NCBI GenBank assembly: GCA_913043225.1
Contig: CAJWLU010000008.1
Coordinates: forward strand, 64,001-128,000
Direction of reading: 5' to 3'
DNA length: 64,000 bases
Source of the DNA: an uncultured Acidobacteriota bacterium
GTDB lineage: Bacteria; Acidobacteriota; Vicinamibacteria; Vicinamibacterales; UBA8438
Below, piece after piece: positions 10,182 to 42,630 of the stretch. Each line of letters begins with the position of its first letter. Within the stretch, counting starts at the first letter, position 1. The position numbers and the translations under genes are program-made. The notes beneath the pieces were generated by a model. That model ran no database searches. It was given only the letters and a program-made list of their open reading frames with translations, and was not told the DNA's origin.

Positions 10182-12635
10182 ATGAGAGGACTCTTCTGGC
10201 GCGTTGTGCTTAGTCTGCCGGTGGCGGCCGCGCTGGTCCCACCGGCGTCTGCGCAGTCGTTTGAAGACCGCGTGAAGCCGCTGGTGAGTGAGTCCTGCGC
10301 TCGGTGCCACGGCGTTCGCACGACGACGCCGCTCAACCTCGTCGACCTGGGCTACGACCTTACCGACCACGAGACGTTTTCGGCCTGGGAGAAGGTTTAC
10401 GAGCGGCTCGAGCGGGGTGAGATGCCGCCGGCGACCGCCCCGCAGCCTGACCGCGAGGCGGTGACGACTGCGCTGGCGTCGCTCGACACCGCGCTGACCG
10501 ACGCCAATCTCCAGGTGCGCGGCGCGCAGCGGACGCCCCTCCGCCGGTTGACGAGTCTGGAGTACGGCTACAGCATCGAAGACTTGCTGCAGGTGGACGA
10601 GGCCGTTGCTGCGGACGTGGCCTCGTTACTGCCAGCCGAGGCCGACTCGGGCGGGTTCGACACAGTGGCCGCCAGTCAGAGCATGTCACCGCTGCACGTG
10701 CAGTCCTACCTGGCTGCGGCCGACCGTGCCTTGGATGCCGCACTGGTGGTGGGACCACCTCCGGCCACGCAGCATCGCGTGATCGACTACACCCACTCCC
10801 AAGTTCTCGCTGGCCTCGAGAACTGCGATTTCTTGGCCTGCGGGGCCACTCTCCGACAGGACGATGGGGTCGCCATGATCTCCGACGTCTCTTCGACGTT
10901 CACGTTCCACAGCTTGTCGGAGGGTTTTTCTGTGGCCTATCCCGGGCGATACCGGGTCAGTCTCGAGGGGTATCCCTACCAGGCCGACACGCCCGTGACG
11001 ATGGCGCTGTATCACGGCCGGATGGCCGGAACCTCCGCCTCGCTAGATGCGTTGATCGGGCAACTGGATCTGGTGGGCGACGACAGCGGCATACTGACCG
11101 TGACCCCGTTCATGCGGCCCGGTGATCTGATGGCGCCGACGCTGGCGGATCACGACTATCTTCCGCAGGACGATCCGTCGGGTTACTTCGTGCCAGAGCG
11201 CCACGCGCGTGACTACCGCGGCGAGGGCATCGTCATGCAGTCGATGACGATCGAGGGACCACTGTTCGACAGCTGGCCCCCTCCAAGCACACGAGCCTTG
11301 CTCATGGGCGTGGACTTCGACGAGGACGGCTATGTTGTGCTCTCGAAGGCACCCTACGAGCACATCGTCGCGATCGTCGAGCGATTCGCCGAGCGCGCGT
11401 TCCGTCGTCCGCTGGCTGAGGGTGAACTCGACGCCTACGCGAGTCTGGCCCAGCCGCTGCTCGACGCAGGGCGGCCGTTCGCGGAGGCCGTGCGGGTGCC
11501 GCTGCGCGCGGTGCTGAGCGCCCCTGCGTTCCTGTACCACACGACGCCATCGGGCGAGCTCGATGATTTTGCGCTCGCTACGCGGCTCTCCTATTTCCTC
11601 TGGCGGAGTATGCCGGATGAGCAGCTTTCGGCCTTGGCGTCCGACGGGACGCTCTCGTCGCCGGAGGTGCTGTCCGCCCAGGTCGAGCGGATGCTCGACG
11701 ACCCGAAGGCCGAACGGTTCGTACGAGACTTCGCGGGACAGGCTTTCCGGCTGTATGAGCTGCGCGCGACGTCGCCCGACCCGGGGCTCTATCCGGAGTA
11801 TGACGACCGACTGGCCCAGGCGATGGAGCGAGAGAGCCTGCTGTTTTTCGCCGAGCTGATCGCGTCCGACGCCGGTGTGGACAGTCTGGTCGCTGCTGAC
11901 TTCACCTTCCTGAACCGGCGACTGGCCGAACACTACGGTATCGACGGGATTGACGGGCAACAGATGCGGAAGGTGGCGCTGTCGACTGACAGCCCACGTG
12001 GTGGATTGCTCACACAGGCGAGCGTGCTGAAGATCACGGCCAACGGTACCACCACGTCGCCGGTGCCGCGTGGCAACTACGTGCTCGGTAACCTCCTTGG
12101 GCAGCACCCGCCTCCGCCACCGCCGGGTGTCGCGGGGCTCGAGCCGGACACGCGCGGCACGACTACCATCCGTGAACAGCTCGACGCGCACCGCTCGAAC
12201 GCCGTCTGTGCCAGCTGTCACCGGAAGATTGACCCGCCCGGCTTCGCCCTGGAGTCATTCGACCCGATTGGGGGGTTTCGCGATCAGTACCGAGTACCGG
12301 GCGGCATGCTGACCGTTCCGGACGGCAACGGCGGAGAGTTTGAGATTCCCGGGCCCTACACCTTGGGGGCGGTGGTCGACACGAGTGGCGTGACCCCGGC
12401 GGGGGATCGCTTCTCAGGCATCCGGGACTACAAGCGGTTGTTGCTGAACGATGCCCTCGACCAGATCGCTCATCACGTGGCATCCCAGCTGGTTGTCTTT
12501 TCGACCGGGGCCGAGGTGGAGTTCGCGGATCGTCACGGAGTGGAGGAGATCGTGACGGCGACGCGCAACGAGGGGTATCCTGTACGGGGTATGATCCACG
12601 AGGTCGTGAAGAGCGACCTCTTTAGGAGTAATTAG
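10182..12635 (+). CDS. DUF1592-family (PSD2-5/PSCyt3) c-type cytochrome protein, paralogue P1
   Basis: Signal peptide; CARCH...MPP; LRRLT..EY; GFDT; RAFRRP; LATRLSYFLWRSMPD; RGGLLTQ; TSPVPRG; TIREQLDAHR..CASCH..IDPPGFALE. Confidence 0.9.
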   Translation: MRGLFWRVVLSLPVAAALVPPASAQSFEDRVKPLVSESCARCHGVRTTTPLNLVDLGYDLTDHETFSAWEKVYERLERGEMPPATAPQPDREAVTTALASLDTALTDANLQVRGAQRTPLRRLTSLEYGYSIEDLLQVDEAVAADVASLLPAEADSGGFDTVAASQSMSPLHVQSYLAAADRALDAALVVGPPPATQHRVIDYTHSQVLAGLENCDFLACGATLRQDDGVAMISDVSSTFTFHSLSEGFSVAYPGRYRVSLEGYPYQADTPVTMALYHGRMAGTSASLDALIGQLDLVGDDSGILTVTPFMRPGDLMAPTLADHDYLPQDDPSGYFVPERHARDYRGEGIVMQSMTIEGPLFDSWPPPSTRALLMGVDFDEDGYVVLSKAPYEHIVAIVERFAERAFRRPLAEGELDAYASLAQPLLDAGRPFAEAVRVPLRAVLSAPAFLYHTTPSGELDDFALATRLSYFLWRSMPDEQLSALASDGTLSSPEVLSAQVERMLDDPKAERFVRDFAGQAFRLYELRATSPDPGLYPEYDDRLAQAMERESLLFFAELIASDAGVDSLVAADFTFLNRRLAEHYGIDGIDGQQMRKVALSTDSPRGGLLTQASVLKITANGTTTSPVPRGNYVLGNLLGQHPPPPPPGVAGLEPDTRGTTTIREQLDAHRSNAVCASCHRKIDPPGFALESFDPIGGFRDQYRVPGGMLTVPDGNGGEFEIPGPYTLGAVVDTSGVTPAGDRFSGIRDYKRLLLNDALDQIAHHVASQLVVFSTGAEVEFADRHGVEEIVTATRNEGYPVRGMIHEVVKSDLFRSN

Positions 12636-13898
12636 ATGACCATGTCAGTTGATCGACGTACGTTCCTGCGCGCTTCGGGCGTCGCGATGGCATTGCCGGT
12701 GCTCGAGTCAATGCACCCGGCGCTGGCGCGGGCCGCGGCCGCGTCACCTAAGCGGATGGTGAACATCTGCAGCACGCTGGGGCTCTACTCCGATTCCTGG
12801 TTCCCGAAGACGACAGGTGCCGGGTGGGAAGCCACGCAGTATCTGTCGCTCATCGAGCAGCACCGTGACAACTTCACGCTGTTCTCGGGGCTCTCGCACG
12901 AAGAGCAGAGCGGGCGTCAGCCGCACAACTCGGAGATCACGTGGCTAACTGCGGCACGTCGACCGGGTCTCGACGGCTTCCGTAACTCCATCTCGATCGA
13001 CCAGGTGGCGGCCAACCAGTTCGGTTACAGCACCCGGTTCCCGTCGATCGTGCTCGGCACCGCTACCGCACAAAGCCAGTCGTTCACGACTAGTGGCGCC
13101 ATGGTGCCGGCCGAAGCCAGTGCGGCCGAGCTGTTCCGGAAGCTGTTCCTGCAGGGCACCCCTGAGGAGCTCGAACGCGAGGCCCAGAGTCTCGAGGATG
13201 GCGGCAGTATCCTTGATCGGCTCAAGACGCAGACCGACGCGTTGCGGCGGCGGGTGAGCGCGGCCGACCAGCGCAAGCTCGATGCCTATTACCAGGCGGT
13301 GCGCACCGCCGAGCAGGATCTGGGCGAGGTCAAGGCCTGGCAGACGCGGGCGAAGCCGGTCGTCGGTGCCGAGCAGCCGACCGACCTGCCGAACCCGGCC
13401 GACCTAATCGGGCGGATCAAGCTAATGTTCAACCTTATCCCACTGATTCTAGAGACTGACTCGTCGCGTGTGGTCAGCATGATGATCCAGGACCACGGCG
13501 TTGTGCCCACTGTGCAAGGCGTCAGCTCGGACCAGCACAGCCTGTCGCACCACGGCCAGGACCCGGGCAAGATTGAGCAGCTCAAGAAGATCGAACTGCA
13601 GATCGTCGAGGCGTTCGGCACGCTGATGGACGATCTCCAGAGCCGGACCGATGAGAATGGGTCGCTGCTCGACCAGACGACGGTGCTCTTCGGCAGCAAC
13701 CTGGGCAACGCCAACGCGCACACGCCCGTCGACCTGCCGGTTCTGGTCGCCGGCGGCGGTTTCTCGCACGGGCAGCACATTGCCCACCAGGGCGAGCACA
13801 ACGCTCCGCTCTGCGACCTGTTCGTCACCTTGCTGCAGAACGTCGGAGTGGAAACCGATCAGTTTAGCCAGAGCAAGAGCACCCTCACCTGGGGGTGA
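12636..13898 (+). CDS. DUF1552 (HXXSHH) family protein, Tat-exported
   Basis: DRRTFLRASGVAMALPVLESM Tat signal; NSISIDQVAA, TRFPS, GGSILD, HSLSHH, LPVLVAGG; abuts P1 via TAGATG. Confidence 0.9.
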   Translation: MTMSVDRRTFLRASGVAMALPVLESMHPALARAAAASPKRMVNICSTLGLYSDSWFPKTTGAGWEATQYLSLIEQHRDNFTLFSGLSHEEQSGRQPHNSEITWLTAARRPGLDGFRNSISIDQVAANQFGYSTRFPSIVLGTATAQSQSFTTSGAMVPAEASAAELFRKLFLQGTPEELEREAQSLEDGGSILDRLKTQTDALRRRVSAADQRKLDAYYQAVRTAEQDLGEVKAWQTRAKPVVGAEQPTDLPNPADLIGRIKLMFNLIPLILETDSSRVVSMMIQDHGVVPTVQGVSSDQHSLSHHGQDPGKIEQLKKIELQIVEAFGTLMDDLQSRTDENGSLLDQTTVLFGSNLGNANAHTPVDLPVLVAGGGFSHGQHIAHQGEHNAPLCDLFVTLLQNVGVETDQFSQSKSTLTWG

Positions 13899-14013: not shown

Positions 14014-16464
14014 ATGTACCGGGTCGTAGTTCTTGTTCTGATCGGTGTGCTTACGGGTACCGGGGCCGCGACGGCCCAGTCGCTGCAGGAAGACGTCCGT
14101 CCGCTTGTGCGCGAGTCGTGCGTGCGTTGCCACGGTGTGCGCACCGTCACCCCGCTCAACCTGGTCGATCTCGGGTACGACCTGTCGGACCGCGAGACGT
14201 TCGCGACCTGGGAGAAAGTCTACGAGCGGCTCGAACGAGGGGAGATGCCCCCGTCGACGGCGGCCCAGCCTGACGGAACGGTTGTTGACGCCGCGCTCGC
14301 CTCGCTGAAGCTGGCCTTGACCGACGCGAGCGTGACGGCGCGCGGTGATCAGCGCACGCCTCTGCGCCGGCTGACCCGTCTCGAGTACGGCTACACCATC
14401 TCGGATCTGATCGGGGTGGACGAGGAGATCGGCGAAGAGCTGGGCCAGAGTCTGCCGGCCGAGGCCGACTCGGGCGGGTTCGACACCGTCGCCGCCAACC
14501 AGGCGATGTCGCCGCTCCATATCCAGAGCTATCTCGCCGCCGCTGACGCCGCTCTGGACGCCGCGCTGGTCGTCGGGCCGCCGCCGCCGGTCGACCTGTA
14601 TCACGTCGACTACGGTGTCTCGCAGTATCTCTATGGCATCGCCAACGCGAGAGCGATCGGCCTCGGCAGCGTCTTGCAGCTCGATGACGCCTACGTCCAG
14701 TTCTTCGACTTCACCTCCACCTACACGTTCCACAGCATGTCGGAGGGGATCGCCATCCCGTATCCCGGCCGGTACGACGTGACCGTGGAGGCCTATCCCT
14801 ATCAGGCCCGGACACCGGTCGGGTTCATGGTGTACCACGGTAAGCTGGCGGGCGTGGCGGCGTCGCTCGACGAGCTGATCGGGGCCTACGATCTGGAGGC
14901 CGGCGAGACGACGGCGGTCAAGCTGAGGCCGTTCATGCGTCCTGGCGACCTGATCGGCGTGACGCCGATCGATACCGATGTTCCCCCGGACGCCGATCCC
15001 GCCACCCTCTCACCGGCGGACCCCGCCGACGGTTACATCGATCTCATCCAGGACTATCCCGGCGAAGGAGTGGCGTTCAAGTCGATGACGATCGAGGGGC
15101 CCATCCTCGACGCCTGGCCTCCCGAGAGCACGCGTCAGCTCCTGGTCGGGGTCGAGTTTGATGAGGAGCACCAGGTCCGTCTGACCAAGGAGCCGTATGC
15201 TCACGTGGTGGACGTCGTGGCGGCCTTCGCCCCGCGCGCGTTCCGCCGGCCGTTAAGCGATGAGCAGATCGAGGCCTATGCCTCGTTGGCGCGTCCCCTG
15301 ATAGAAGAGGGGCGGCCGTTCCTCGAGGCGGTGCGGGTACCCTTGCGCGCCATTCTCAGCGCGCCAGCCTTTCTCTTTCACGGCGCGTCGGCGTCGGCCG
15401 AGCTCGACGACTTCGACCTGGCCACCAGGCTGTCGTACTTTCTCTGGCGAAGCATGCCCGACGAGGCGCTGCTCGCGGCGGCCCGCGACGGCCGGCTGTC
15501 TGACTCGTCGGCGCTGATCGCGCAGGTCGACCGGATGCTGGACGACCCGAAGTCCTCGCGGTTCGTCAAAGACTTCGCCGGCCAGGCGTTCCGGATCTAC
15601 GAGTTGAGGTCCACCACGCCTGACCCGGGGCTCTATCCGGAATACGAAGACCGGCTTGGCCAGGCGATGGCCTGGGAGACGCAGCTCTTCTTCGGTGAGC
15701 TGATCGCCAGCAACCTCGGGGCGGGCGCCCTGATCGACGCCGACTTCACGTTCTTGAATCGGCGGCTGGCCGACCACTACGGCGTGCCGGATGTCGTCGG
15801 CATGCAGATGCGCAAGGTGGACCTCCCGGCCGGGAGTCCGCGCGGCGGGCTGCTGACCCAGGCCGCCGTCCACAAGATCACGGCCAACGGCACCGCGACC
15901 TCACCGATTCCCCGTGGCAACTTCGTCTTGACGAACCTACTGGGGCGTCCGGCGCCGCCACCGCCCGCCGAGGTGGGCGCGCTCGAACCGGATACCCGCG
16001 GTACGACGACCATCCGTGAGCAGCTCGACGCCCACCGGAGCAGCCCGGTGTGCGCGAACTGTCACCGGGTGATCGACCCGCCCGGGTTCGCCATGGAGTC
16101 GTTCGACCCGATCGGCGGGTTCAGGACGAACTATCGCGTGCCGGGTGAGGCGATGGACTTCGACGGTTTCATAGTGCCCGGGCCTTTCACGGACGGAGCG
16201 CGGGTCGACGCGAGCGGCGTGACCCCAGGGGGCGACAGCTTCGCGGACATCAACGAGTACAAGCGACTGCTGATCGATACCGAGCTCGACGCGGTGGCCG
16301 GTCACTTGGCGTCGCAATTGCTGATCTTTGCGACCGGTGCCGAGATCGCGTTCGCCGACCGTGCGGCGGTCGACGGCATCGTTAATGCCGGTCGCACCGA
16401 AGGCCATCCGGTGCGCACGATGATTCAGCGGATCGTTGGCAGTGACCTGTTCAAGACGCGCTGA
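14014..16464 (+). CDS. DUF1592-family c-type cytochrome protein, paralogue P2
   Basis: Signal peptide; CVRCH and CANCH; same scaffold motifs as P1. Confidence 0.9.
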   Translation: MYRVVVLVLIGVLTGTGAATAQSLQEDVRPLVRESCVRCHGVRTVTPLNLVDLGYDLSDRETFATWEKVYERLERGEMPPSTAAQPDGTVVDAALASLKLALTDASVTARGDQRTPLRRLTRLEYGYTISDLIGVDEEIGEELGQSLPAEADSGGFDTVAANQAMSPLHIQSYLAAADAALDAALVVGPPPPVDLYHVDYGVSQYLYGIANARAIGLGSVLQLDDAYVQFFDFTSTYTFHSMSEGIAIPYPGRYDVTVEAYPYQARTPVGFMVYHGKLAGVAASLDELIGAYDLEAGETTAVKLRPFMRPGDLIGVTPIDTDVPPDADPATLSPADPADGYIDLIQDYPGEGVAFKSMTIEGPILDAWPPESTRQLLVGVEFDEEHQVRLTKEPYAHVVDVVAAFAPRAFRRPLSDEQIEAYASLARPLIEEGRPFLEAVRVPLRAILSAPAFLFHGASASAELDDFDLATRLSYFLWRSMPDEALLAAARDGRLSDSSALIAQVDRMLDDPKSSRFVKDFAGQAFRIYELRSTTPDPGLYPEYEDRLGQAMAWETQLFFGELIASNLGAGALIDADFTFLNRRLADHYGVPDVVGMQMRKVDLPAGSPRGGLLTQAAVHKITANGTATSPIPRGNFVLTNLLGRPAPPPPAEVGALEPDTRGTTTIREQLDAHRSSPVCANCHRVIDPPGFAMESFDPIGGFRTNYRVPGEAMDFDGFIVPGPFTDGARVDASGVTPGGDSFADINEYKRLLIDTELDAVAGHLASQLLIFATGAEIAFADRAAVDGIVNAGRTEGHPVRTMIQRIVGSDLFKTR

Positions 16465-16535
16465 CCCAGGTGTGTCTGTCCGGGTCGACGTTATACTTCC
16501 CTCTACAGAGGTGTGAGCTCCATAACGAGGTTCCT

Positions 16536-17579: not shown

Positions 17580-17612
17580 TACGTGACTGACTCCGTAATT
17601 GAGGCATCTGAT

Positions 17613-18536: not shown

Positions 18537-18595
18537 AGAGCTCGGTGTTGCGTCGCCGAGGGCCATTTTCAGGATTGTTCACTGCGTCTAACCCT

Positions 18596-18631
18596 ATCCA
18601 ATCGTTTGGATGGTAAATTCAAACACTTGAA
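18596..18631. promoter_or_regulatory. Candidate operator palindromes upstream of the TonB-dependent receptor
   Basis: ATCCAA-TCGT-TTGGAT (18596-18611) and TTCAA-ACAC-TTGAA (18618-18631) in an AT-richer 330-bp spacer. Confidence 0.35.
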
Positions 18632-18867
18632 CGACCGATAGTAGGTTGAACGGTTGAGATGGAGCTAAATCTGGGCTGATTGGTGTGAGTTCAGGATGGC
18701 TTGAATCTTGCTGAGTCTTCCGTGGAAGCGGCTGAGGCTTGCCTCGGCTTCGGTGTGTGTGTTAAAAATTGGTGAAACGAAAGAGCGTGACAGGTTCCTG
18801 TTTGCGTCCGTGTGACGGAGACTGGACACCCCTGAAGTTATGGGGCCTCTGGAGGGAATGCAGGGAT

Positions 18868-21777: not shown

Positions 21778-21800
21778 AGCCGTTTTTCCGGGGTAACATG

Positions 21801-21839
21801 AAACGCCGGGGAGCCGAAAGGCTCCCCGGCGTTTTTTTT
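21801..21839 (+). terminator. Rho-independent terminator
   Basis: AAACGCCGGGGAGCC-GAAA-GGCTCCCCGGCG followed by eight T, 23 nt after the receptor stop. Confidence 0.9.
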
Positions 21840-21850
21840 GGGCGCGCATC

Positions 21851-26256: not shown

Positions 26257-26265
26257 AGAACGGTC

Positions 26266-30160: not shown

Positions 30161-30171
30161 TACCGGGCGGC

Positions 30172-31938: not shown

Positions 31939-31972
31939 CGGGAGGGCGCGTCCCACAAGTAAACTGGGTATC

Positions 31973-34045: not shown

Positions 34046-36490
34046 ATGTACTCTCATGTTCTCCGCACGCTGCCACTGGCCCTGTTCGCGAGCGTTGCCG
34101 CGGCGCAGCCGTTCGAACACGACCTCCGTCCGCTGGTACGCGATTCGTGCGTCCGGTGCCACGGCGTTCGCACCGTTACGCCGCTGAACCTAGTCGATCT
34201 GGATTATGACCTGACCGACCGCGAGACCTTTGCCACCTGGGAGAAGGTGTACGAGCGGCTTGAGCGGGGTGAGATGCCGCCCGACACGGCTCCCCAGCCG
34301 GCGCGGGCGATGGTTGACGCGGCGTTGACGTCGCTCGGGTCGGCGTTGACCGACGCGAACCTGTCAGCCCGCGGCGGCCAGCGCACGCCGCTCCGGCGGC
34401 TCACTCGCCTAGAGTACGGTTTCACGATAGCTGACCTGCTCGGCGTGGACGAGGCACTGGGGGCTGAGCTCGCGCAGCTGTTGCCGGCCGAAGCTGATTC
34501 TGGTGGGTTCGACACCGTGGCCGCCAATCAGGCAATGTCGCCCCTGCACGTGCAGAGCTATCTCGCGGCCGCCGATGCTGCGCTCGACGCGGCGCTTCAG
34601 GTGGGAGCCCCACCGCCGATCGAGGCCCGCGTCCGGAACTATCGTCAGTCTGACTATCTGGCTCTGCTCGAAGGTTGTGACTTCCGGGCGTGTGGTGCGA
34701 TCCGTCAGCTCGACGACGCCTACGTTGCCTTCTCTGAGGTCGCCTCTACCTTCTCATTCCATACCGGCTGGGCTTCCGAGTTGATCGAGATTCCCGCACC
34801 CGGTCGCTATAGGGTCTCGGTCGAGGCCTATCCGTTTCAGGCCGATACGGTGGTCACGCTGGCGCTCTATCAGGGGCGTCTGGTCGCGGTGAACGCTGCC
34901 ATGAACCGGCTGATCGCCACTATGGATCTGGTCGGCGACGAGAGCCGGACGTTGGAGGTGACACCGTTCCTCTATCCGGGTGATCTGATTGCCCCGGTGC
35001 CATTCGACAACGAGGCGCCTCCAGGAGACCGGCCCGAGAACTACTTCGCTCCGGAGAAGCACGTGCGGGACTATGAGGGTGAAGGCATCGCACTGAAGTC
35101 GATCACGATCGACGGTCCTCTCTATGACTCGTGGCCGCCCCCGAGCACGCATGCCCTGCTGTCTGGGATCATGTTCGATGCGAACCACAACGTCGTGCTC
35201 TCGAAGACACCCTACGAGCACGTGGTGGACGTCGTCGAGCGGTTCGCGCCCCTGGCCTTCCGTCGGCCGCTGGCTGAGGGCGAGCTCGAAACGTATGCAA
35301 GCTTGGCCGAGCCGCTGCTCGCCGAGGGCCGCTCCTTCGTCGACGCGGTGCGAGTGCCGTTGCGGGCGGTGCTGAGCGCACCCGCGTTCCTGTTCCACGG
35401 GGCGGCCGGGGCGTCCGGTGCGCTCGACGACTTCGAATTGGCCACGCGGCTGTCGTATTTTCTGTGGCGGAGCCAGCCTGACGAAGTGTTGTTCGAGCTG
35501 GCGCACTCGGGGCGGCTGTCGAATCCGGAGATCTTGTCCGGGGAGGTCGAACGGATGCTCGACGATCCGAAGGTCGAGCGGTTCGTACACGACTTTTTTG
35601 GGCAGGCACTGCGGCTGAACGAGTTGCGCGCCACGAGTCCGGATCCCGGTCTCTACCCGGAGTACGACGACCGTCTGGGGCAGGCGATGGAGCAGGAGAC
35701 GCAGCTGTTCCTCGCCGAGTTGATCGCGACCGATGAGGGCGTGGACAGTCTCATCGATGCGGAGTTCACCTTCCTGAACCGTCGACTGGCAGAGCACTAC
35801 GGCGTCGAAGGGGTCACCGGCACCGAGATGCGCCAAGTGACACTGCCGGCCGAGAGCCCGCGCGGAGGTCTGCTGACGCAGGCCAGCATCCACAAGATCA
35901 CGGCGAACGGCACGACGACGTCTCCAATCCCGCGCGGCAACTTCGTGCTGTCGAACCTGCTGGGTCGGCCTGCACCCCCACCGCCTGAGGCAGTCGGCGC
36001 GCTCGAACCGGACACCCGGGGTACTACGACTATCCGCGAACAGCTCGACGCACATCGGAACAGCCCGGTGTGCGCCAGCTGTCACCGCTCCATCGATCCG
36101 CCCGGCTTCGCGCTCGAGTCGTTCGACCCGATCGGTGGGTTCCGTACTCGCTATCGGGTCTCTGGGGGACCGGACGTCGACCGCGGGAACGGGGATCTTC
36201 AGCCTGCTCTCTACGCGGAAGGTCCGGCGGTGGACGCAAGCGGCATCACTCTTGGCGGGCAGCGGTTCACCGGGCTCGAGGAGTACAAGGCGCTGTTGCT
36301 TGAGACCGAGCTCGACGCCGTCGCACGGCACCTCACCACGGAGTTCTTCGTGTTCTCGACCGGCGCCGAGGTAGAATTCGCCGACCGGCCGGCGATCGCA
36401 GCGATCGTGGATGCCGGTCGCACGGACCGTTATCCAATCCGCAGCATGATTCACGGCGTCGTCGCGAGCGATTTATTTCGTCAGCGGTAG
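34046..36490 (+). CDS. DUF1592-family c-type cytochrome protein, paralogue P3
   Basis: Signal peptide; CVRCH and CASCH; same scaffold as P1. Confidence 0.9.
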   Translation: MYSHVLRTLPLALFASVAAAQPFEHDLRPLVRDSCVRCHGVRTVTPLNLVDLDYDLTDRETFATWEKVYERLERGEMPPDTAPQPARAMVDAALTSLGSALTDANLSARGGQRTPLRRLTRLEYGFTIADLLGVDEALGAELAQLLPAEADSGGFDTVAANQAMSPLHVQSYLAAADAALDAALQVGAPPPIEARVRNYRQSDYLALLEGCDFRACGAIRQLDDAYVAFSEVASTFSFHTGWASELIEIPAPGRYRVSVEAYPFQADTVVTLALYQGRLVAVNAAMNRLIATMDLVGDESRTLEVTPFLYPGDLIAPVPFDNEAPPGDRPENYFAPEKHVRDYEGEGIALKSITIDGPLYDSWPPPSTHALLSGIMFDANHNVVLSKTPYEHVVDVVERFAPLAFRRPLAEGELETYASLAEPLLAEGRSFVDAVRVPLRAVLSAPAFLFHGAAGASGALDDFELATRLSYFLWRSQPDEVLFELAHSGRLSNPEILSGEVERMLDDPKVERFVHDFFGQALRLNELRATSPDPGLYPEYDDRLGQAMEQETQLFLAELIATDEGVDSLIDAEFTFLNRRLAEHYGVEGVTGTEMRQVTLPAESPRGGLLTQASIHKITANGTTTSPIPRGNFVLSNLLGRPAPPPPEAVGALEPDTRGTTTIREQLDAHRNSPVCASCHRSIDPPGFALESFDPIGGFRTRYRVSGGPDVDRGNGDLQPALYAEGPAVDASGITLGGQRFTGLEEYKALLLETELDAVARHLTTEFFVFSTGAEVEFADRPAIAAIVDAGRTDRYPIRSMIHGVVASDLFRQR

Positions 36491-36523: not shown

Positions 36524-38971
36524 ATGAGGAGTCTTTGGTTGTTGCTGGTGGCTCTGGCCCTGGTTCCCGACCTGGCTTATCCCCAGTCGTTCGGGGACGA
36601 CGTCCGCCCTCTGCTGCGCGAGTCCTGCGTGCGATGCCACGGTGTTCGTACGGTCACGCCACTCAACCTTGTAGACCTTGGCGACGACCTCACTGATCAC
36701 GAGACGTTTCAGGCCTGGGAGAAGGTCTACGACCGGCTCTCACGCGGCGAGATGCCGCCCGCCGCGGCGCCGCCGGCTGACGGCCAGCAGGTCGACGCCG
36801 CGCTTGCCGCGTTGAAGGACGCTCTGACGGAGAGGAGTCTGGCCGAGCGAGGCGAGCAGCGCACGCCGCTGCGCCGTCTCACTCGATTGGAGTACGCCTA
36901 CACGATCCAGGATTTGCTGGGCATCGACGATGCGATTGCCTCCGATCTCAGTCAGACGCTGCCGGCGGAGGCCGACTCCGGTGGGTTTGACACGGTCGCT
37001 GCCAATCAGAGCATGTCGCCGCTTCATATCCAGTCCTATCTGGAGGTGGCCGATCGCGCACTCGACACGGCGCTCGCCGTGGGACCACCTCCACCGGTCG
37101 ATACCTATGTGATCGACTATGCAAACTCCAGGTATCTCTATGGGATAAGCCGGGGGAAGGGGCTAGGTATCGGCGTGGTGAAGGAGCTCGACGACGGCTA
37201 CGCGATGTTCTTCGATGTGGGGAGCTACATCTTCCACAGCATGACCGAAGGCGTGGCCATTCCCTATCCGGGCCGTTACCGGGTGACGGCCGAGGCCTAC
37301 CCATATCAGGCCGACGCTCCGGTCAACTTGATGGTCTATCGGGGGAGGATGTCGGGCCAGGCGGCGTCCCTCGACGGGATGGTGGGCTCGTTCGACCTCA
37401 CGGGGCCCCGGACCATCGAGGTCACACCGTTTCTGCGGCCGGGAGAGCTGATCAGCTTCTCACCCGGCGATCTCTCCGGGCTCGACGGGCTGCCGGAGGA
37501 GGAGCGTGGGGGCTATCCACCTGAGGATCCGTTCGACGGCTGGGGTGGGATGCACGGCTATCCCGGGAGTGGCATCGTCCTCAAGACGATGACGATCGAG
37601 GGGCCTCTGCTCGACTCGTGGCCAGCCCCCTCTACGCGGGCCCTGTTACCCGGGGTCGAGTTCGACCGGGACGGCGCGCCGCGGTTCACCCGGTCACAGG
37701 ACGAGCACCTGGTCGATATCGTGGCGTCATTCGCGCCACGCGCCTTCCGCCGGCCGCTCGAAGATGGCGAACTTGATGCCTACGTCGACCTCGGGCGACC
37801 GTTGCTGGCCGAGGGGCGTGCCTTCCTTGAGGCGGTCCGGGTGGCGCTGCGCGCGGTGCTGAGTGCCCCGTCGTTCCTCTATCACGCTGGGTCGCCCGGA
37901 GAGCTGGACGACTTCAGCCTCGCTACCCGCCTGTCCTACTTCCTGTGGCGCAGCATGCCGGACGCGGAGCTGTTCGACACTGCCAGGGCCGGTCAGCTGG
38001 TCGACCCCAAGGTGCTGCGCCGCCAGGTCGACCGGATGCTCGATGATCCAAAGGCCGAGCGGTTTACCAGAGACTTCGCCGGGCAGGCGTTCCGGCTCTA
38101 CGAGTTGTCGGCTACGAGCCCCGATCCCGGCCTCTACCCGGAGTTCGACGACCGCTTGGCCCGGGCGATGGCTCAGGAGACACAGCTGTTCCTGGCCGAG
38201 CTGGTCAGTGAGAACCTCGGAGTCGGTCAGCTGATAGATGCTGACTTCACGTTCCTGAATCGCCGGCTCGCCGAGCACTACGACGTCGATGGTGTGGCTG
38301 GTGCGCGGATGCGACGGGTTACGCTCCCCCCCGACAGCCCACGCGGCGGGTTGTTGACGCAGGCGAGTATCCATAAGATCACGGCCAACGGCACCACCAC
38401 ATCGCCGATTCCACGCGGCAACTTCGTACTGTCGAACCTGCTCGGACGGCCCGCGCCGCCCCCGCCCGCTGAGGTTGGTGCGCTCGAGCCGGACACTCGC
38501 GGCACCACAACCATACGCGAGCAGCTCGACGCGCACCGCACCAGTCCGGTGTGCGCGAACTGTCACCGGGTCATCGATCCGCCGGGGTTCGCTCTGGAGG
38601 CGTTCGATCCGATCGGGCAGTTCCGGACGCGGTATCGCACGTCGGGAGGGGAGAACGTCGCCGGAGAATTCAAGCTGTCGGTGCCGGCCCCCTTTACCGA
38701 GGGAGGGGAGGTTGACCCCAGCGGCGTGACGCCAGACGGTGACGCCTTCGCCGGTATCAAGGACTACAAGCGTCTGCTTCTTGAGCGCGAAGTCGACCAG
38801 GTCGCCAGACATTTGGCATCGAGTCTGCTGGTGTTCGGCACCGGTGCCGAGCAGGCCTTCGCCGATAGAGATACCGTTGAGGCGATCGTCTCCAGCGGTC
38901 GCGACCAGGGGCACCAGGTGCGCACGATGATTCACGAGGTCGTCCAGAGCGATCTGTTCCGTCGTCGGTAA
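36524..38971 (+). CDS. DUF1592-family c-type cytochrome protein, paralogue P4
   Basis: AGGAGG RBS; signal peptide; CVRCH and CANCH. Confidence 0.9.
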   Translation: MRSLWLLLVALALVPDLAYPQSFGDDVRPLLRESCVRCHGVRTVTPLNLVDLGDDLTDHETFQAWEKVYDRLSRGEMPPAAAPPADGQQVDAALAALKDALTERSLAERGEQRTPLRRLTRLEYAYTIQDLLGIDDAIASDLSQTLPAEADSGGFDTVAANQSMSPLHIQSYLEVADRALDTALAVGPPPPVDTYVIDYANSRYLYGISRGKGLGIGVVKELDDGYAMFFDVGSYIFHSMTEGVAIPYPGRYRVTAEAYPYQADAPVNLMVYRGRMSGQAASLDGMVGSFDLTGPRTIEVTPFLRPGELISFSPGDLSGLDGLPEEERGGYPPEDPFDGWGGMHGYPGSGIVLKTMTIEGPLLDSWPAPSTRALLPGVEFDRDGAPRFTRSQDEHLVDIVASFAPRAFRRPLEDGELDAYVDLGRPLLAEGRAFLEAVRVALRAVLSAPSFLYHAGSPGELDDFSLATRLSYFLWRSMPDAELFDTARAGQLVDPKVLRRQVDRMLDDPKAERFTRDFAGQAFRLYELSATSPDPGLYPEFDDRLARAMAQETQLFLAELVSENLGVGQLIDADFTFLNRRLAEHYDVDGVAGARMRRVTLPPDSPRGGLLTQASIHKITANGTTTSPIPRGNFVLSNLLGRPAPPPPAEVGALEPDTRGTTTIREQLDAHRTSPVCANCHRVIDPPGFALEAFDPIGQFRTRYRTSGGENVAGEFKLSVPAPFTEGGEVDPSGVTPDGDAFAGIKDYKRLLLEREVDQVARHLASSLLVFGTGAEQAFADRDTVEAIVSSGRDQGHQVRTMIHEVVQSDLFRRR

Positions 38972-38973: not shown

Positions 38974-40116
38974 ATGACCGACCTGGCGGGCACGACCACC
39001 CGATCTCTCGCCCCGCTTTTCCGTTCGTTTCCCTTTGGTGCCCGTGAGTTGGCGAACCGGGTGGTCATGGCCCCCATGACCCGAACGCACGCACCACAGC
39101 AGACCCCAGGGCCAGACGTTACCGCCTATTACCGACGACGCGCCGAGGGCGGTACGGGGCTCATCATCACCGAAGGGACGAACCCTGACCATCCAGCCGC
39201 CAGTGTTTCCTCCCGGGTTCCCGCCTTCTTCGGCGAGTCTCCACTGGCTGGCTGGAGGCACGTGGTGGACGAGGTGCATGCGGCTGGCGCCGCCATCGCG
39301 CCGCAACTCTGGCACACCGGATCGATGCGACTCTCGCGCACCGGCCCCCCAAATCCGGAGCTTCCAGGATTCGCGCCCTCGGCGATTCCGCACCCGTCCC
39401 ACCCCGAGGCCGACGCCGAGATTCCCCACGCCATGACCCACGCGGACATCGACGAGATGATCGCGTCGTTCGCCCGGGCGGCTGGGGTTGCCCGCGAGAT
39501 CGGGTTCGATGGTGTGGAGCTGCACGGGGCGCACGGTTATCTTGTTGATGCGTTTTCCTGGACCGCGACCAATCAGCGCACCGATGAGTACGGGGGCTCG
39601 CTCGATGCGCGGACACGGTTCGCCACCGAGCTCGTTGCGGCAGTGCGGACGGCGGTGGGGCAGGATTTCCCGCTGATCTTCCGGTTCTCACAATGGAAGC
39701 GGGGCGCCTACGACCACAAGGTGGCGACGACCCCCGCCGAGCTCGACCGCTGGCTCATGCCGCTGGTCGAGGCGGGCGTCGACATGCTCCACGCCAGCAC
39801 CCGTCGGCTCGACGAGCCGGAGTTTGACGGTTCTGGGCTGAACCTGGCCGGTTGGGCGAAGAAGATCACGGGCCTTCCCACGATCACGGTGGGCAGTGTG
39901 GGCCTCGACATCGACTATGTGATGTCGCGCGAGGGAAGCGATGCGCGGAAGGTGGGTATGGATCGCCTGCTCGAACGGCTCGAACGCGACGAGTTCGATC
40001 TGGTTGCCGTGGGTCGTGCGCTGCTCGCCGACCCGGCCTGGGCGGCCAAGCTCCGCGATGGGCAGGAGGCCGACATCGTCGGCTTCGAGCGGGAGCATCT
40101 CACCCGCTACTATTAG
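38974..40116 (+). CDS. NADH:flavin oxidoreductase (old yellow enzyme family)
   Basis: NRVVMAPMTR, GLIITEG, QLWHTG, GFDGVELHGAHGYL, NQRTDEYGGS, VGRALLADP. Confidence 0.92.
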   Translation: MTDLAGTTTRSLAPLFRSFPFGARELANRVVMAPMTRTHAPQQTPGPDVTAYYRRRAEGGTGLIITEGTNPDHPAASVSSRVPAFFGESPLAGWRHVVDEVHAAGAAIAPQLWHTGSMRLSRTGPPNPELPGFAPSAIPHPSHPEADAEIPHAMTHADIDEMIASFARAAGVAREIGFDGVELHGAHGYLVDAFSWTATNQRTDEYGGSLDARTRFATELVAAVRTAVGQDFPLIFRFSQWKRGAYDHKVATTPAELDRWLMPLVEAGVDMLHASTRRLDEPEFDGSGLNLAGWAKKITGLPTITVGSVGLDIDYVMSREGSDARKVGMDRLLERLERDEFDLVAVGRALLADPAWAAKLRDGQEADIVGFEREHLTRYY

Positions 40117-40167
40117 CGCTGAGAGTCTGATCCCCGTGGTACGATCACGACTTCGCGAGGTCGACAG

Positions 40168-42630
40168 ATGAGCGATATGGCGAGATTCCACCGAGCGGGG
40201 TTGGCGGCCGTGTGCCTGCTGGGTATGACAACGGCGGCGACCTCAGGCCAGCCCCTGGAAGACGATGTCGGACCGCTCGTGCGCGAGTCCTGCGTCCGCT
40301 GTCACGGTGTGCGCACGGTAACTCCCCTCAATCTGGTCGACCTCGGCTATGACCTGTCCGATCGTGAGACCTTCAGGACCTGGGAGAAGGTTTATGAACG
40401 GCTCGAGCGGGGCGAGATGCCACCGTCAACGGCTCCCCGGCCCAAAGCCGCGTCTGTTGAATCGGCTCTTGGCGCCCTTCGGCAGGCTCTCTCCGAGGCG
40501 AGCTTGGTTGCCCGAGGCGAGCAGCGGGGGGCACTGCGCCGGCTGACCAGGCTTGAGTATGCCAACACCGTGTCCGATTTGCTTGGCGTTGACCCTGAGA
40601 TAGGTACCGAGCTGTCTCTGACCCTGCCGGCTGAGGCCGATTCGGGCGGTTTCGATACCGTCGCCGCTAACCAGAGCATGTCGCCGCTCCATGTCCGGAG
40701 CTATCTGGCCGCGGCCGACGAGGTGCTGGACGTCGCACTTGTCACCGGACCGCCCCCGCCGGTCGAGCGCTACGAGATCGACTACGCGACCTCCGAGCGT
40801 CTGTATCGCCATAGCCAGAGGATCGGCCTTGGCGCGGGCATGGCAAGACAACTCGACGACGCCTACGTGGCGTTCTTCGACTATGCGGCGACCTACACGT
40901 TCCACAGCGAGGCTGAGGGCGTCTCCATCCCCTATCCCGGCCGCTACCGCGTCAGCGTCGAGGCATATCGCTATCAGGCCGAGACCCCGGTGGCGCTGAA
41001 GATCTACCGGGGGCTGAAGGCCGGGGTTGCCTCCACGCTCAACGACTTGATCGGCTGGTTCGACCTCACCGACGACGAGACCGTTACGGTCGAAGTCATG
41101 CCCTTCCTCCGCCCCGGACATCTCATCGGGGTGGCCCCGGACGACGCGGACGGCGATGACGACCCAGCTCTGGCCTTCGAGGATCGGTCGCAGGGCTATC
41201 GGGAGGTTCTGAAGACCTACGAGGGTGAAGGCATTGCCTTCAAGACGATGACCATCGAGGGGCCGTTGCTTGAGAGCTGGCCTCCTCGGAGCACGCGCGA
41301 CCTGCTGCCCGGCGTCGGGTTCGATCACGACGGCTACGTTCAGTTTGCGAAGGCGCCGTTCGAGCACGTGGTCGACGCTGTGGCGGCGTTCGCACCGCGC
41401 GCGTTCCGCCGTCCGGTCGACGTCGACGAGGTGATGACGTATGCCTCGCTGGCGCGCCCGGTTCTCGAGGCCGGGCGGCCGTTCATCGAGGCGGTGCGGG
41501 TGCCGCTGCGCGCGATCCTAAGCGCGCCGTCGTTCCTTTATTTGAGTGGTGAGTCGGCCTCACCACACCTCGACGATGTCGAGCTGGCAACGCGGTTGTC
41601 GTACTTCCTGTGGCGGAGTCACCCTGACAGCGAGCTGTCCGAGCTCGCGGTCGACGGACGGCTGCAAGACCCGGCGGTGCTGGTCGGTCAGGTCGACCGC
41701 TTGCTGAACGACCCGCGTTCACGGCGTTTTGTTAATGATTTTCTCGGGCAGGCGTTCCGGCTCTACGAGATGACGGCCACGAATCCGGATCCGGGACTGT
41801 ATCCGGAGTTTGACGATCGGCTCGGGCAGGCGATGGTGGCCGAGACGCAGTTGTTTCTGGCCGAATTGATCGCCGAGGATCTCAGCGCGGCCAACCTGAT
41901 CGACGCCGACTTTACCTTTGTGAACCGTCCGTTGGCCGAGCACTACGGGCTGCCTGGGATCTTGGGCACGGAGATGCGGAAGGTGCCGCTGCCGGCGGAC
42001 AGTCCTCGCGGCGGCTTGCTCAGTCAGTCGAGCGTACTCAAGATCACGGCCAACGGTACGAACACGTCTCCGATCCCGCGCGGGAACTTCGTGCTGGAGA
42101 ACCTCCTCGGTCGACCAGCGCCGCCCCCGCCGGCCGAGGTGGGCGCGCTCGAGCCGGATACCCGGGGAACCATCACCATTCGCGAGCAACTTGACGCGCA
42201 CCGGAAGAGCCCAACCTGCGCTAACTGTCATCGGGTCATTGACCCGCCAGGGTTCGCCCTGGAATCGTTCGACCCGATCGGCGGGTTCCGCGCTAGTTAC
42301 CGGATCTCTGGTGGTCAGAAGGAGTTTGGGTCGTTCATTATCCGGAACCCGTATCTCGAGGGCCCATCGGTCGACTCGAGCGGGGTGACTCCAGATGGGA
42401 TGTCATTCAGTGGGTTCGTGGACTACAAGCAGCATCTGCTCGACCGTGAGCTCGACGCGGTGGCTCGTCACCTGGTGTCGCAGCTCATTGTCTTTTCGAC
42501 CGGGGCCGACACTGCGTTCGCCGACCGAGTTTGGATCGACGCCATCGTGGATGCGGAGCGAGAGGCCGGATACCCAGTCCGTTCATTGATCCACCGGATC
42601 GTGGCGAGCGATCTGTTCCGCCAGAGGTAG
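40168..42630 (+). CDS. DUF1592-family c-type cytochrome protein, paralogue P5
   Basis: Signal peptide; CVRCH and CANCH; same scaffold. Confidence 0.9.
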   Translation: MSDMARFHRAGLAAVCLLGMTTAATSGQPLEDDVGPLVRESCVRCHGVRTVTPLNLVDLGYDLSDRETFRTWEKVYERLERGEMPPSTAPRPKAASVESALGALRQALSEASLVARGEQRGALRRLTRLEYANTVSDLLGVDPEIGTELSLTLPAEADSGGFDTVAANQSMSPLHVRSYLAAADEVLDVALVTGPPPPVERYEIDYATSERLYRHSQRIGLGAGMARQLDDAYVAFFDYAATYTFHSEAEGVSIPYPGRYRVSVEAYRYQAETPVALKIYRGLKAGVASTLNDLIGWFDLTDDETVTVEVMPFLRPGHLIGVAPDDADGDDDPALAFEDRSQGYREVLKTYEGEGIAFKTMTIEGPLLESWPPRSTRDLLPGVGFDHDGYVQFAKAPFEHVVDAVAAFAPRAFRRPVDVDEVMTYASLARPVLEAGRPFIEAVRVPLRAILSAPSFLYLSGESASPHLDDVELATRLSYFLWRSHPDSELSELAVDGRLQDPAVLVGQVDRLLNDPRSRRFVNDFLGQAFRLYEMTATNPDPGLYPEFDDRLGQAMVAETQLFLAELIAEDLSAANLIDADFTFVNRPLAEHYGLPGILGTEMRKVPLPADSPRGGLLSQSSVLKITANGTNTSPIPRGNFVLENLLGRPAPPPPAEVGALEPDTRGTITIREQLDAHRKSPTCANCHRVIDPPGFALESFDPIGGFRASYRISGGQKEFGSFIIRNPYLEGPSVDSSGVTPDGMSFSGFVDYKQHLLDRELDAVARHLVSQLIVFSTGADTAFADRVWIDAIVDAEREAGYPVRSLIHRIVASDLFRQR

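What the first reader, a model, noticed from the sequence alone, without database searches (positions are those of the whole stretch)
10182..42630. Five diheme DUF1592 paralogues with a conserved scaffold and three CDR-like hypervariable loops
Seen: P1-P5 (815-820 aa) share near-invariant blocks: SCxRCHGVRTxTPLNLVDL, LPAEADSGGFDTVAA, LATRLSYFLWRS, PDPGLYPE, KITANGT, LEPDTRGT, CAxCHRxIDPPGFA. They diverge sharply, including in length, at three sites. Loop 1: ENCDFLACGATL / ANARAIGLGSVL / EGCDFRACGAIR / SRGKGLGIGVVK / SQRIGLGAGMAR. Loop 2 (before YxGxG): DHDYLPQDDPSGYFVPERHARD / DTDVPPDADPATLSPADPADGYIDLIQD / DNEAPPGDRPENYFAPEKHVRD / DLSGLDGLPEEERGGYPPEDPFDGWGGMHG / DDADGDDDPALAFEDRSQGYREVLKT. 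Loop 3 (after heme 2): GGMLTVPDGNGGEFEIPGPY / GEAMDFDGFIVPGPF / GGPDVDRGNGDLQPALY / GGENVAGEFKLSVPAPF / GGQKEFGSFIIRNPY. Established: the family is uncharacterised and expanded in Planctomycetes and Acidobacteria. Inference: a diversified repertoire of periplasmic substrate-recognition/electron-transfer subunits. This is the best candidate for an undescribed system in the window.
Basis: partly seen in the sequence, partly recalled or inferred. Interest (0 to 1): 0.82.

Follow-up and report, generated by a model that had tools for sequence, protein, structure and literature searches.

The report
Seven cytochromes sharing one partner enzyme
A marine bacterium keeps seven versions of an uncharacterised two-haem protein, each with its own fixed sugar-binding-like domain, but only one matching partner protein, which suggests one exported redox enzyme with interchangeable substrate-recognising subunits rather than antibody-like variation.

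Summary
The five paralogues and three variable stretches are real, and the variation is clustered far beyond chance. They are not CDR-like: each paralogue's loops are fixed within the species and under purifying selection between orthologues (dN/dS 0.09-0.26), and no reverse transcriptase was found. Loops 1 and 2 lie in an inserted jelly-roll domain resembling CBM36/6/35; loop 3 is a hairpin after haem 2.

P1-P5 plus two genes elsewhere form one subfamily of seven with a single DUF1552 partner, whereas the genome's other 25 DUF1592 genes each have their own. A surplus of large subunits recurs in 7 of 52 family genomes holding both. A complex model supports binding of P2 to that partner (0.67, best control 0.00). 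The partner has an alkaline-phosphatase fold, with a His cluster at the interface.

Best reading: a periplasmic metal/dihaem oxidoreductase with swappable specificity subunits; chemistry and substrates untested. One relative shows a clean swap of exactly the jelly-roll domain; this genome shows none. The scan noted the canonical pairs and a similar mosaic before, on other DNA.

The parts
10182..12635 (+). P1, dihaem DUF1592-family large subunit; stop codon abuts the DUF1552 gene
12636..13898 (+). The only DUF1552 (HXXSHH) gene of this subfamily in the genome: twin-arginine signal (read by eye), alkaline-phosphatase/sulfatase fold, His cluster, lacks the 15-residue Cys loop of most canonical DUF1552 proteins
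14014..16464 (+). P2, large subunit 115 bp downstream of the DUF1552 gene, with no second partner gene; modelled in complex with it
34046..36490 (+). P3, large subunit without an adjacent DUF1552 gene
36524..38971 (+). P4, large subunit without an adjacent DUF1552 gene
40168..42630 (+). P5, large subunit without an adjacent DUF1552 gene
10767..11258 (+). P1 inserted jelly-roll domain (CBM36/6/35-like fold); loop 1 about 10818-10853, partner-facing hairpin 11016-11042, loop 2 about 11148-11213
   Evidence: coordinates from alignment columns, approximate
14590..15099 (+). P2 jelly-roll insert; loop 1 14641-14676, hairpin 14839-14865, loop 2 14971-15054
34619..35116 (+). P3 jelly-roll insert; loop 1 34670-34705, loop 2 about 35006-35071
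37097..37603 (+). P4 jelly-roll insert; loop 1 37148-37183, loop 2 about 37469-37558
40762..41262 (+). P5 jelly-roll insert; loop 1 40813-40848, loop 2 about 41143-41217
12300..12359 (+). P1 loop 3, a beta-hairpin after haem 2 (equivalents: P2 16144-16188, P3 36164-36214, P4 38645-38695, P5 42310-42354)
10296..10310 (+). P1 haem-1 CxxCH (P2 14119, P3 34148, P4 36626, P5 40291)
12207..12221 (+). P1 haem-2 CxxCH in PSCyt3 (P2 16051, P3 36071, P4 38552, P5 42217)
12924..13721 (+). Span holding the His/Asn cluster of the DUF1552 partner (H62, H266, H270, H271, N325, H327 in model numbering), all named in the predicted interface

Best explanation
P1-P5, and two further genes on other contigs, are interchangeable large subunits of one periplasmic two-subunit metallo-oxidoreductase. 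The single Tat-exported DUF1552 protein supplies a His-rich metal site on an alkaline-phosphatase fold. Each large subunit docks on it through a conserved, subfamily-specific surface and closes that site. It relays electrons through haem 2 and the N-terminal class-I-type haem 1 to or from the respiratory chain. It sets the substrate range with its CBM-like jelly-roll domain (loops 1 and 2, hairpin 276-284) and loop 3. The repertoire grew by gene duplication, each subtype is now held by purifying selection, and in the wider subfamily the jelly-roll domain is occasionally exchanged by recombination. Shown here: domains, 7:1 gene ratio, co-occurrence, purifying selection, one domain swap in a relative. 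Modelled: folds and the dimer. Inferred: haem and metal binding, redox chemistry, substrate recognition by the insert, small organic or sugar-like substrates.
For: Gene ratio: 7 large to 1 small in this subfamily, against 25:25 for the genome's other copies. The same 5:1 cluster lies on an independent conspecific contig (L124+L137). In 94 family genomes, 52 hold both subfamily genes, 39 neither, 1 only the large and 2 only the small; 7 of the 52 have surplus large genes and 0 of 52 surplus small. Copies outside the subfamily stay near 1:1 in 5 of 5 genomes checked. Complex model of P2 (mature 94-713) with the partner: score 0.67, best of 3 controls 0.00; this mark was reached by 116 of 157 solved complexes and 2 of 215 mismatched pairs; runs agree in at least 87% of contacts; partner pLDDT at least 84. 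Of 65 interface positions, 36 are invariant in all seven paralogues, against 205 of 555 elsewhere (p 0.005). Twenty of 65 are invariant and subfamily-specific, against 71 of 555 (p 0.0006). The partner's conserved His cluster faces the large subunit. Insert fold: CBM36 Z 11.3, rmsd 2.7, 117 aligned. Partner fold: PafA Z 17.5, rmsd 3.6, 267 aligned. Loops are under purifying selection. PF01578 cytochrome c assembly genes are present. Neighbours in relatives are often PQQ dehydrogenases, glyoxalase-fold proteins, esterases and TonB receptors.
Against: No activity, haem, metal or ligand has been measured, and my seven paper searches found no functional study of such a pair. The complex tool warns that close cousins of a true partner also pass, and P2 was not modelled with a canonical DUF1552, so exclusive sharing is not shown. 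The model lacked haem 1's domain and PSD2. Loops 1 and 2 were not named in the interface, so they may face away from the metal site. The insert has no sequence-level match to any CBM, and a shared fold shows no function. 45 of 52 genomes are 1:1, so sharing is not the subfamily's rule. Some surplus copies are doubtful: the second copy in G102 is on a 4.7-kb contig, the third in G105 aligns over 422 residues only, and G154 is 4:2 once a gene split over contig ends is counted. This genome is 96% complete in 55 contigs, so a second partner gene could be missing. Silent-site mosaicism is no commoner in the insert than in a control block at p<0.001 (15 of 4832 against 15 of 4851 pairs), and no pair involving this genome's genes is significant (best p 0.0035).
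Confidence: 0.45

Rival explanations
1. Shared partner and variable recognition domain as above, but the chemistry is hydrolysis or group transfer (phosphatase/sulfatase-like), and the haems sense redox state or reactivate the metal site rather than carry catalytic electrons.
For: Alkaline-phosphatase/sulfatase fold. Two of the closest non-subfamily large subunits are fused to sulfatase domains. He et al. 2017 (PMC5615132) report sulfatase genes near PSCyt genes.
Against: By comparison with recalled superfamily motifs, the Asp after strand 1 and the Ser/Thr/Cys nucleophile are not kept; His or Pro-His stands at that position (inference, no residue-level structural alignment). Both CxxCH motifs are near-invariant in 150 aligned relatives.
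Confidence: 0.2
2. P2-P5 do not need the DUF1552 protein. They act alone, or with any of the genome's 25 other DUF1552 proteins, as ligand-binding electron shuttles for neighbouring enzymes such as PQQ dehydrogenases, in the way proposed for Cellvibrio Cbp2D.
For: P3-P5 lie 20-29 kb from the partner gene. Cbp2D, which carries a DUF1587 domain and a CxxCH-bearing X132 domain, has a haem domain that reduces an LPMO (PMC8981238, PMC12542752). Lone copies in relatives often lie near PQQ enzymes.
Against: The large gene occurs without the small in only 1 of 53 family genomes, and that match is on a short open frame. The predicted interface is kept in all seven paralogues and is enriched in subfamily-specific residues.
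Confidence: 0.17
3. The loops are ordinary surface loops that drifted after old duplications; the paralogues are functionally near-redundant and differ in dosage or regulation.
For: Insert identity is lower than scaffold identity in canonical copies too (0.31 against 0.54). Loop 3 varies within subtypes and is shortened in some members. A first pass that included paralogous pairs gave loop dN/dS 0.31-0.46.
Against: Loops 1 and 2 are as constrained as the scaffold within orthologues. Loop types recur across distant genomes, for example P5 against P0023 with loop 2 identical and scaffold 78%. G100 keeps two genes that differ almost only in the insert.
Confidence: 0.13
4. Antibody-like or DGR-like diversification generates hypervariable loops in an arms race with phages or predators.
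For: Variation is sharply clustered in three stretches on a conserved scaffold; one relative shows a domain swap.
Against: Loops are nearly identical in a conspecific contig, and dN/dS is far below 1. No reverse transcriptase, no long repeats among the paralogues.
Confidence: 0.03

Closest known systems
PSCyt group III proteins (PSCyt3+PSD4+PSD2/3/5) next to DUF1552 genes, He et al. 2017 (PMC5615132; passages and supplement file 1 part 2 read)
   Same: Same domains, same DUF1552 neighbour for P1, predicted export, function unknown. CBM domains inside some members and a role on sugar mono- or oligomers were already suggested.
   Different: Described as gene pairs. Here seven large genes go with one small gene, the insert is a CBM-like fold unrecognised by Pfam, and a dimer model and interface are given.
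DUF1501 + PSCyt1/PSCyt2/PSD1 module, Kamneva et al. 2012 (PMC3542564; passages read)
   Same: Tat-exported putative enzyme beside a cytochrome with accessory binding domains; electron transfer and substrate recognition were proposed.
   Different: Different Pfam families; 5 PSD1 genes each match a DUF1501 position in this genome. Kinship by circular permutation was tested and is inconclusive.
Cellvibrio japonicus Cbp2D and Teredinibacter TERTU_2913/3803, X132 domain (PMC8981238 section 5 and one passage; PMC10916295 and PMC12542752 passages)
   Same: DUF1587-type domain followed by a CxxCH-bearing C-terminal domain, additional c-type haem, carbohydrate-binding modules; the only relatives with a phenotype that I found (cellulose growth).
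   Different: Large secreted multidomain proteins with true CBM2/CBM10; X132 could not be expressed; no DUF1552 partner is mentioned in the passages read. Homology of X132 to P1-P5 was not tested by alignment.
CBM36/CBM6/CBM35 jelly-roll modules (PDB 7ay3, 2dcj, 1ux7)
   Same: Fold of the insert, Z 10.8-11.3. Loops 1 and 2 map by topology to the loop end where these modules bind ligand (recalled), with an invariantly acidic residue (P2 D320) opening loop 2.
   Different: 12-14% identity, no sequence-level match, inserted in a cytochrome scaffold, longer loops and an extended hairpin that touches the partner.
Alkaline phosphatase/sulfatase superfamily (PafA 5too, SPAP 5xwi)
   Same: Core fold of the DUF1552 partner, Z 17.1-17.5.
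   Different: About 10% identity; a His-rich site in place of the usual Asp/nucleophile set (inference from recalled motifs); site capped by a cytochrome subunit in the model.
Exchangeable specificity subunits such as type I restriction HsdS domains (recalled analogy, no call)
   Same: Constant scaffold with a recognition domain exchanged by recombination (G100 case).
   Different: No homology; exported redox-type protein; no recombinase or invertible locus seen.

Membership tests
PSCyt group III / DUF1592 family | PSCyt3 together with PSD4, usually PSD2, PSD3 and PSD5 | tested here: met
   5 of 5 proteins over the Pfam cut-offs for all five domains
PSCyt group III / DUF1592 family | Gene next to a DUF1552 gene | tested here: inconclusive
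   Met for P1 (abutting) and P2 (115 bp downstream of the same gene); not met for P3-P5 or the two genes on C35 and C37. 'Usually next to' in He et al., so this marks a variant, not exclusion.
c-type cytochrome | CxxCH motifs, export, maturation genes | tested here: met
   Two motifs in each protein; PF01578 in 3 places; signal peptides judged by eye only
c-type cytochrome | Covalent haem and redox activity | not testable with these tools
   Needs haem stain and spectra
CBM36/6/35 | Jelly-roll fold | tested here: met
   Z 11.3, rmsd 2.7, 117 aligned
CBM36/6/35 | Sequence-level family match | tested here: not met
   Profile of 34 inserts: 0 PDB sequences at E up to 10; no CBM family among the Pfam matches at E up to 1
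CBM36/6/35 | Calcium-dependent or other carbohydrate binding | not testable with these tools
   Only an invariantly acidic residue at P2 320 is suggestive
Alkaline phosphatase/sulfatase superfamily (partner) | Core alpha/beta fold | tested here: met
   Z 17.5; Foldseek E 3e-6
Alkaline phosphatase/sulfatase superfamily (partner) | Canonical Asp/His metal ligands and Ser/Thr/formylglycine nucleophile | tested here: inconclusive
   Alignment shows a His cluster and no Asp after strand 1; mapping rests on recalled motifs, with no residue-level superposition
Diversity-generating retroelement / CDR-like system | Reverse transcriptase and template repeat | tested here: not met
   PF00078 0 matches in a 96% complete genome; longest identical run among paralogues 29 nt; no separate genome-wide repeat search for a template was run
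Diversity-generating retroelement / CDR-like system | Excess within-species or non-synonymous variation in the loops | tested here: not met
   3 non-synonymous against 10 synonymous changes in one conspecific contig; dN/dS 0.13-0.26 in 16 orthologue pairs
DUF1592-DUF1552-ankyrin module (earlier finding e1-7019766) | Ankyrin gene beside the pair | tested here: not met
   None of the 112 PF12796 matches lies at any of the seven subfamily genes

The most novel reading that the evidence does not exclude
A combinatorial periplasmic redox enzyme of a new kind: one His-metal catalytic subunit on a phosphatase fold is reprogrammed by a set of plug-in dihaem subunits. Their CBM-like recognition domain acts as a cassette that moves between scaffolds by recombination, so that oligotrophic marine Acidobacteria can oxidise many different dissolved organic compounds with one catalytic chain.
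Probability: 0.3. Interest if true: 0.82.

Novelty: new variant of a known kind. Interest (0 to 1): 0.58.

Why it matters
DUF1592/DUF1552 pairs occur in dozens of copies in these genomes (26 pairs here, 20-36 large genes in five relatives), and the search returned about 27,000 related clusters at 50% identity, yet the papers I found call their function unknown. This subfamily is a ready-made experiment: one constant partner, seven natural large subunits, a confident dimer model that points to a His metal site, and a natural domain swap that marks the likely specificity module. It makes the long-open question of what PSCyt proteins do directly testable. If the redox reading holds, it adds a new chemistry to the alkaline-phosphatase fold and a route by which abundant marine Acidobacteria could use varied dissolved organic matter.

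Tried and rejected
CDR/DGR-type diversification: rejected. Sequence searches of PDB with the partner, the five-protein profile and the insert profile found nothing useful. Foldseek on the large model gave no match at E 0.001 or better; the helical haem-2 core was not searched alone, so its fold is untested, not shown new. The ESM Atlas returned only unnamed clusters. Fusion of DUF1552 to a large subunit was looked for among 13 long relatives and found in 0 of 13; sulfatase, SGL, FGE and other domains are fused instead. Circular permutation against the DUF1549/1553 family: PSD4 and PSD2 aligned at the expected places only weakly (P about 0.02), PSD3 and PSD5 did not; inconclusive. General insert shuffling: the insert tree shares 4-6 of 29 splits with scaffold trees against 9 of 29 between scaffold halves, but the halves also reject each other's trees in AU tests, and the silent-site control shows no general excess; only G100 is clear. 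Same-contig paralogues had higher scaffold identity (0.79, n=15, against 0.73), but 'same contig' was a proxy from contig length and kinship confounds it. The first dN/dS pass mixed in paralogous pairs and was replaced by reciprocal best pairs. The careful tree did not finish and the small-subunit tree was never built. The first permutation test failed with NaN and was redone. My ankyrin pattern was too crude and was replaced by a Pfam search. Promoter and terminator scans were at chance level. Two metatranscriptome assemblies hold short contigs over P1, the partner and P2, but contigs without a silent-stretch control do not show transcription; the joints listed come from paralogue cross-mapping or are unresolved. 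Convergence of the three loops could not be measured because model coordinates are not delivered. Paper searches for CBM loop details and for Vicinamibacterales gave nothing relevant.
Full report
OBSERVATION. The five ORFs exist at the stated places and each carries PSD3, PSD5, PSD4, PSCyt3 and PSD2 over the Pfam cut-offs. Mean pairwise identity among the five is 0.63, against 0.24, 0.21 and 0.26 in the three loops. The clustering is far beyond chance: 39 twelve-residue windows at 30% identity or less against 0.3 in shuffles, all in those three stretches, with 0 of 5000 shuffles reaching the minimum. Loop 1 has constant length. The whole segment P2 196-362 is diverged (0.45), against 0.84 for the haem-2 domain.

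SETTING. The genome (3.85 Mb, 55 contigs, 96% complete) has 32 PF07631 and 26 PF07586 matches. The closest named relatives are titled Acidobacteria or Vicinamibacterales, and the DNA runs holding the stretch are marine or seawater metagenomes. In a quick tree (the careful search did not finish, and the tool warned of long branches meeting), P1-P5 and two genes on contigs C35 and C37 form one group of seven with SH-aLRT 99. The same seven, and no others, pass a search with P2 at E 1e-150. Each of the other 25 large genes has its own DUF1552 gene: 24 by my distance filter, and the 25th at C1:149996-150922. The seven have one, at 12636-13898. All other DUF1552 genes of the genome are 26-31% identical to it, and neither the 105 bp after the C37 gene nor the 1018 bp before the C35 gene holds a piece of one. 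No ankyrin gene lies at any of the seven, unlike the canonical pairs noted in earlier finding e1-7019766.

RELATIVES. In 94 family genomes of at least 85% completeness, searched with subfamily-specific parts (at most 37 and 34 candidates scored per genome), 52 hold both genes, 39 neither, 1 only the large and 2 only the small. Seven of the 52 have more large than small genes: this genome 7:1, G012 6:3, G151 4:2, G154 4:1, G105 3:1, G100 2:1, G102 2:1. None has more small genes, and 45 are even. On inspection G154 is 4:2 (a gene split over contig ends), the extra G102 copy is on a 4.7-kb contig, and one G105 copy aligns over 422 residues only. Lone copies with at least 5 kb of flank and no partner are clear in G100, G151 and G154. 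Outside the subfamily the ratio stays near one: 30:29 in G012, 24:24 in G013, and about even in G100, G105 and G154 once fragments are set aside. A conspecific metagenome contig (L124+L137) repeats the 5:1 cluster, and other contigs show large-small-large, small-large-large and three large genes in a row. These genomes are kin, so the counts are not independent trials.

ARE THE LOOPS HYPERVARIABLE? No. Against the conspecific contig, the fifteen loops carry 3 non-synonymous and 10 synonymous changes (dN/dS 0.09; scaffold 0.11). In 16 reciprocal-best orthologue pairs, dN/dS is 0.13, 0.17 and 0.26 for loops 1-3, 0.18 for the rest of the insert and 0.18 for the scaffold. A first pass of 24 pairs that included paralogues gave 0.31-0.46. 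Loop types recur across genomes: P5 against P0023 has loop 2 identical with a 78% scaffold; P3 against P0059 has a 96% insert with an 81% scaffold. Loop 3 is the loosest and is shortened in several members. No reverse transcriptase was found, and the longest identical DNA run among the seven is 29 nt.

STRUCTURE. The P1 model (150-sequence alignment) has pLDDT 95.5 and pTM 0.94, with ordered loops. Model residues 171-339 form a jelly-roll matching CBM36 (7ay3 Z 11.3, rmsd 2.7, 117 aligned; 1ux7 Z 10.8) and CBM6/35/22, without any sequence-level CBM match. Loop 1 follows its first strand and loop 2 precedes its last, so both should lie at the end opposite the domain's termini, where these modules bind ligand (topological inference, recalled knowledge). 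Loop 2 opens with an invariantly acidic residue (D or E in 125 of 125). Loop 3 is a hairpin after haem 2. Whether all three meet could not be measured. The partner model (pLDDT 84.3) has the alkaline-phosphatase/sulfatase fold (PafA Z 17.5, rmsd 3.6, 267 aligned; Foldseek E 3e-6). H266, H270, H271, N325 and H327 are conserved across 36 subfamily and 48 other DUF1552 sequences, and the subfamily lacks a 15-residue Cys loop. Against recalled superfamily motifs, the usual Asp and nucleophile appear replaced by His, which fits a mononuclear multi-His metal site better than a two-metal hydrolase (inference).

THE DIMER. P2 (mature residues 94-713, without the haem-1 domain and PSD2 to fit the cap) with the partner scored 0.67, best of 3 controls 0.00. 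This mark was reached by 116 of 157 solved complexes and 2 of 215 mismatched pairs (counts hold only roughly with my alignments); the runs agree in at least 87% of contacts, and partner pLDDT is at least 84. The model supports binding and does not show it, and cousins of a true partner can pass. The interface uses PSD3 (P2 148-178), PSD5, PSD4 (527-538), the haem-2 domain (625-628, 656-662), the insert's extended hairpin (277-284) and the base of loop 3; loops 1 and 2 are not named. The partner's His cluster faces the large subunit. Interface positions are more conserved among the seven (0.74 against 0.62, p 0.0025): 36 of 65 are invariant against 205 of 555, and 20 of 65 are invariant and differ from the 24 canonical copies compared (the short C7 copy left out), against 71 of 555 (p 0.0006). 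This is what a dedicated shared partner predicts.

DOMAIN EXCHANGE. In single-contig genome G100, two paralogues 2 Mb apart are identical in every codon from 24 to 185 and from 347 to 704 (P2 numbering) but 31-81% identical by 25-codon bin between, which is almost exactly the jelly-roll domain. One insert is 71-88% identical to a type in G105 and G106. Four-fold sites differ at 27 of 52 in the insert against 3 of 343 in the scaffold (p 3e-24). Similarity ends near the gene's stop and about 130 bp upstream. An assembly artefact was not excluded. The insert tree is more discordant with the scaffold than the scaffold halves are with each other (4-6 against 9 of 29 splits). However, across 99 sequences silent-site heterogeneity is no commoner for the insert than for a control block at p<0.001 (15 of 4832 against 15 of 4851; 4 against 1 at 1e-5), and no pair with this genome's genes is significant. 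P1, P4 and P5 have evenly diverged orthologues in the congeneric genome. So exchange happens in the subfamily but is not shown for this window. Earlier finding e1-4121921 reports the same mosaic in another bacterium; I did not check its DNA.

MECHANISM. Most likely (0.45): a periplasmic two-subunit metallo-oxidoreductase in which one His-metal subunit pairs with any of seven dihaem subunits, each gating a different substrate set with its jelly-roll domain and passing electrons through two haems. Gene content, ratio, selection and the G100 swap are shown; folds and dimer are modelled; haem, metal, redox chemistry and substrate recognition are inferred. Rivals: hydrolase or transferase with regulatory haems (0.2), partner-independent electron shuttles (0.17), neutral drift (0.13), CDR-like diversification (0.03).

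WHAT IS KNOWN. He et al. 2017 (PMC5615132; passages and supplement file 1 part 2 read; supplement file 8 is a picture and could not be read) define PSCyt group III beside DUF1552, note CBMs in some members and call the function unknown. Kamneva et al. 2012 (PMC3542564; passages) propose electron transfer and a Tat-exported enzyme for the sister DUF1501 module. Cbp2D and two Teredinibacter proteins (PMC8981238, section 5 and one passage; PMC10916295 and PMC12542752, passages) carry a DUF1587-type domain and a CxxCH X132 domain, with a cellulose-growth phenotype. Studholme et al. 2004 I saw only as a reference. Seven searches of an open-access library found no report of a shared partner, a dimer or domain exchange; subscription papers were not searched.

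VERDICT. Real and ordinary in family membership, unusual in design: a new variant of a known but uncharacterised gene-pair system. The antibody analogy fails; the repertoire idea survives in a sharper, testable form. Interest 0.58.

Noticed in passing
window 61962-64000 (+), running off the end (G000 C8:125962-128421): A sixth DUF1592 gene of the canonical type starts in the window; its DUF1552 and an ankyrin gene follow outside it.
   Followed up: partly
window 54483-58951 (-): DUF1549/DUF1553 cytochrome with DUF1501 partner. The domain order suggests a circular permutation of the DUF1592 scaffold; the profile test was inconclusive.
   Followed up: partly
window 8665-10029, 45371-46444, 52385-53341 (-): Three related, apparently exported proteins with no Pfam match; homologues recur beside subfamily genes in many relatives.
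   Followed up: partly
window 16470-33931: A block between P2 and P3 with a TonB-type barrel, three FG-GAP/ASPIC-UnbV proteins, TPR proteins, two related proteins without a Pfam match and a multihaem cytochrome; partly syntenic in L134 and L137.
   Followed up: no
P1, P3 and the C37 gene, loop 1; L077, L079, L087: Subtype-specific cysteine pairs in loop 1, and an adjacent Cys-Cys pair in another insert type; possible disulphides, structural or redox.
   Followed up: no
P0242, P0244, P0289, P0333, P0389, P0371: Relatives of the large subunit fused to sulfatase, gluconolactonase-like or FGE-sulfatase domains, and one with a Pfam CBM60 hit just before PSD5.
   Followed up: partly
L139, L158, L164, L168, L169, L172; L119, L120: Subfamily-like pairs on contigs of 49-56% GC, and partners at 46-47% identity in records titled Planctomycetes: the subfamily may reach other taxa.
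   Followed up: no
G008, G017, G023, G024 (L009-L011): Single-copy large genes appear in two pieces or truncated; real frameshifts or sequencing errors not resolved.
   Followed up: no
window 15384: A 12-nt in-frame insertion in P2, between PSD5 and PSD4, in contigs of two seawater runs.
   Followed up: no
L129:4018-11138: Two subfamily DUF1552 genes in tandem between two large genes.
   Followed up: no
window 38974-45022: An old-yellow-enzyme flavoprotein sits between P4 and P5, and two glyoxalase-fold proteins and a short-chain dehydrogenase follow P5 closely; possible downstream pathway.
   Followed up: no
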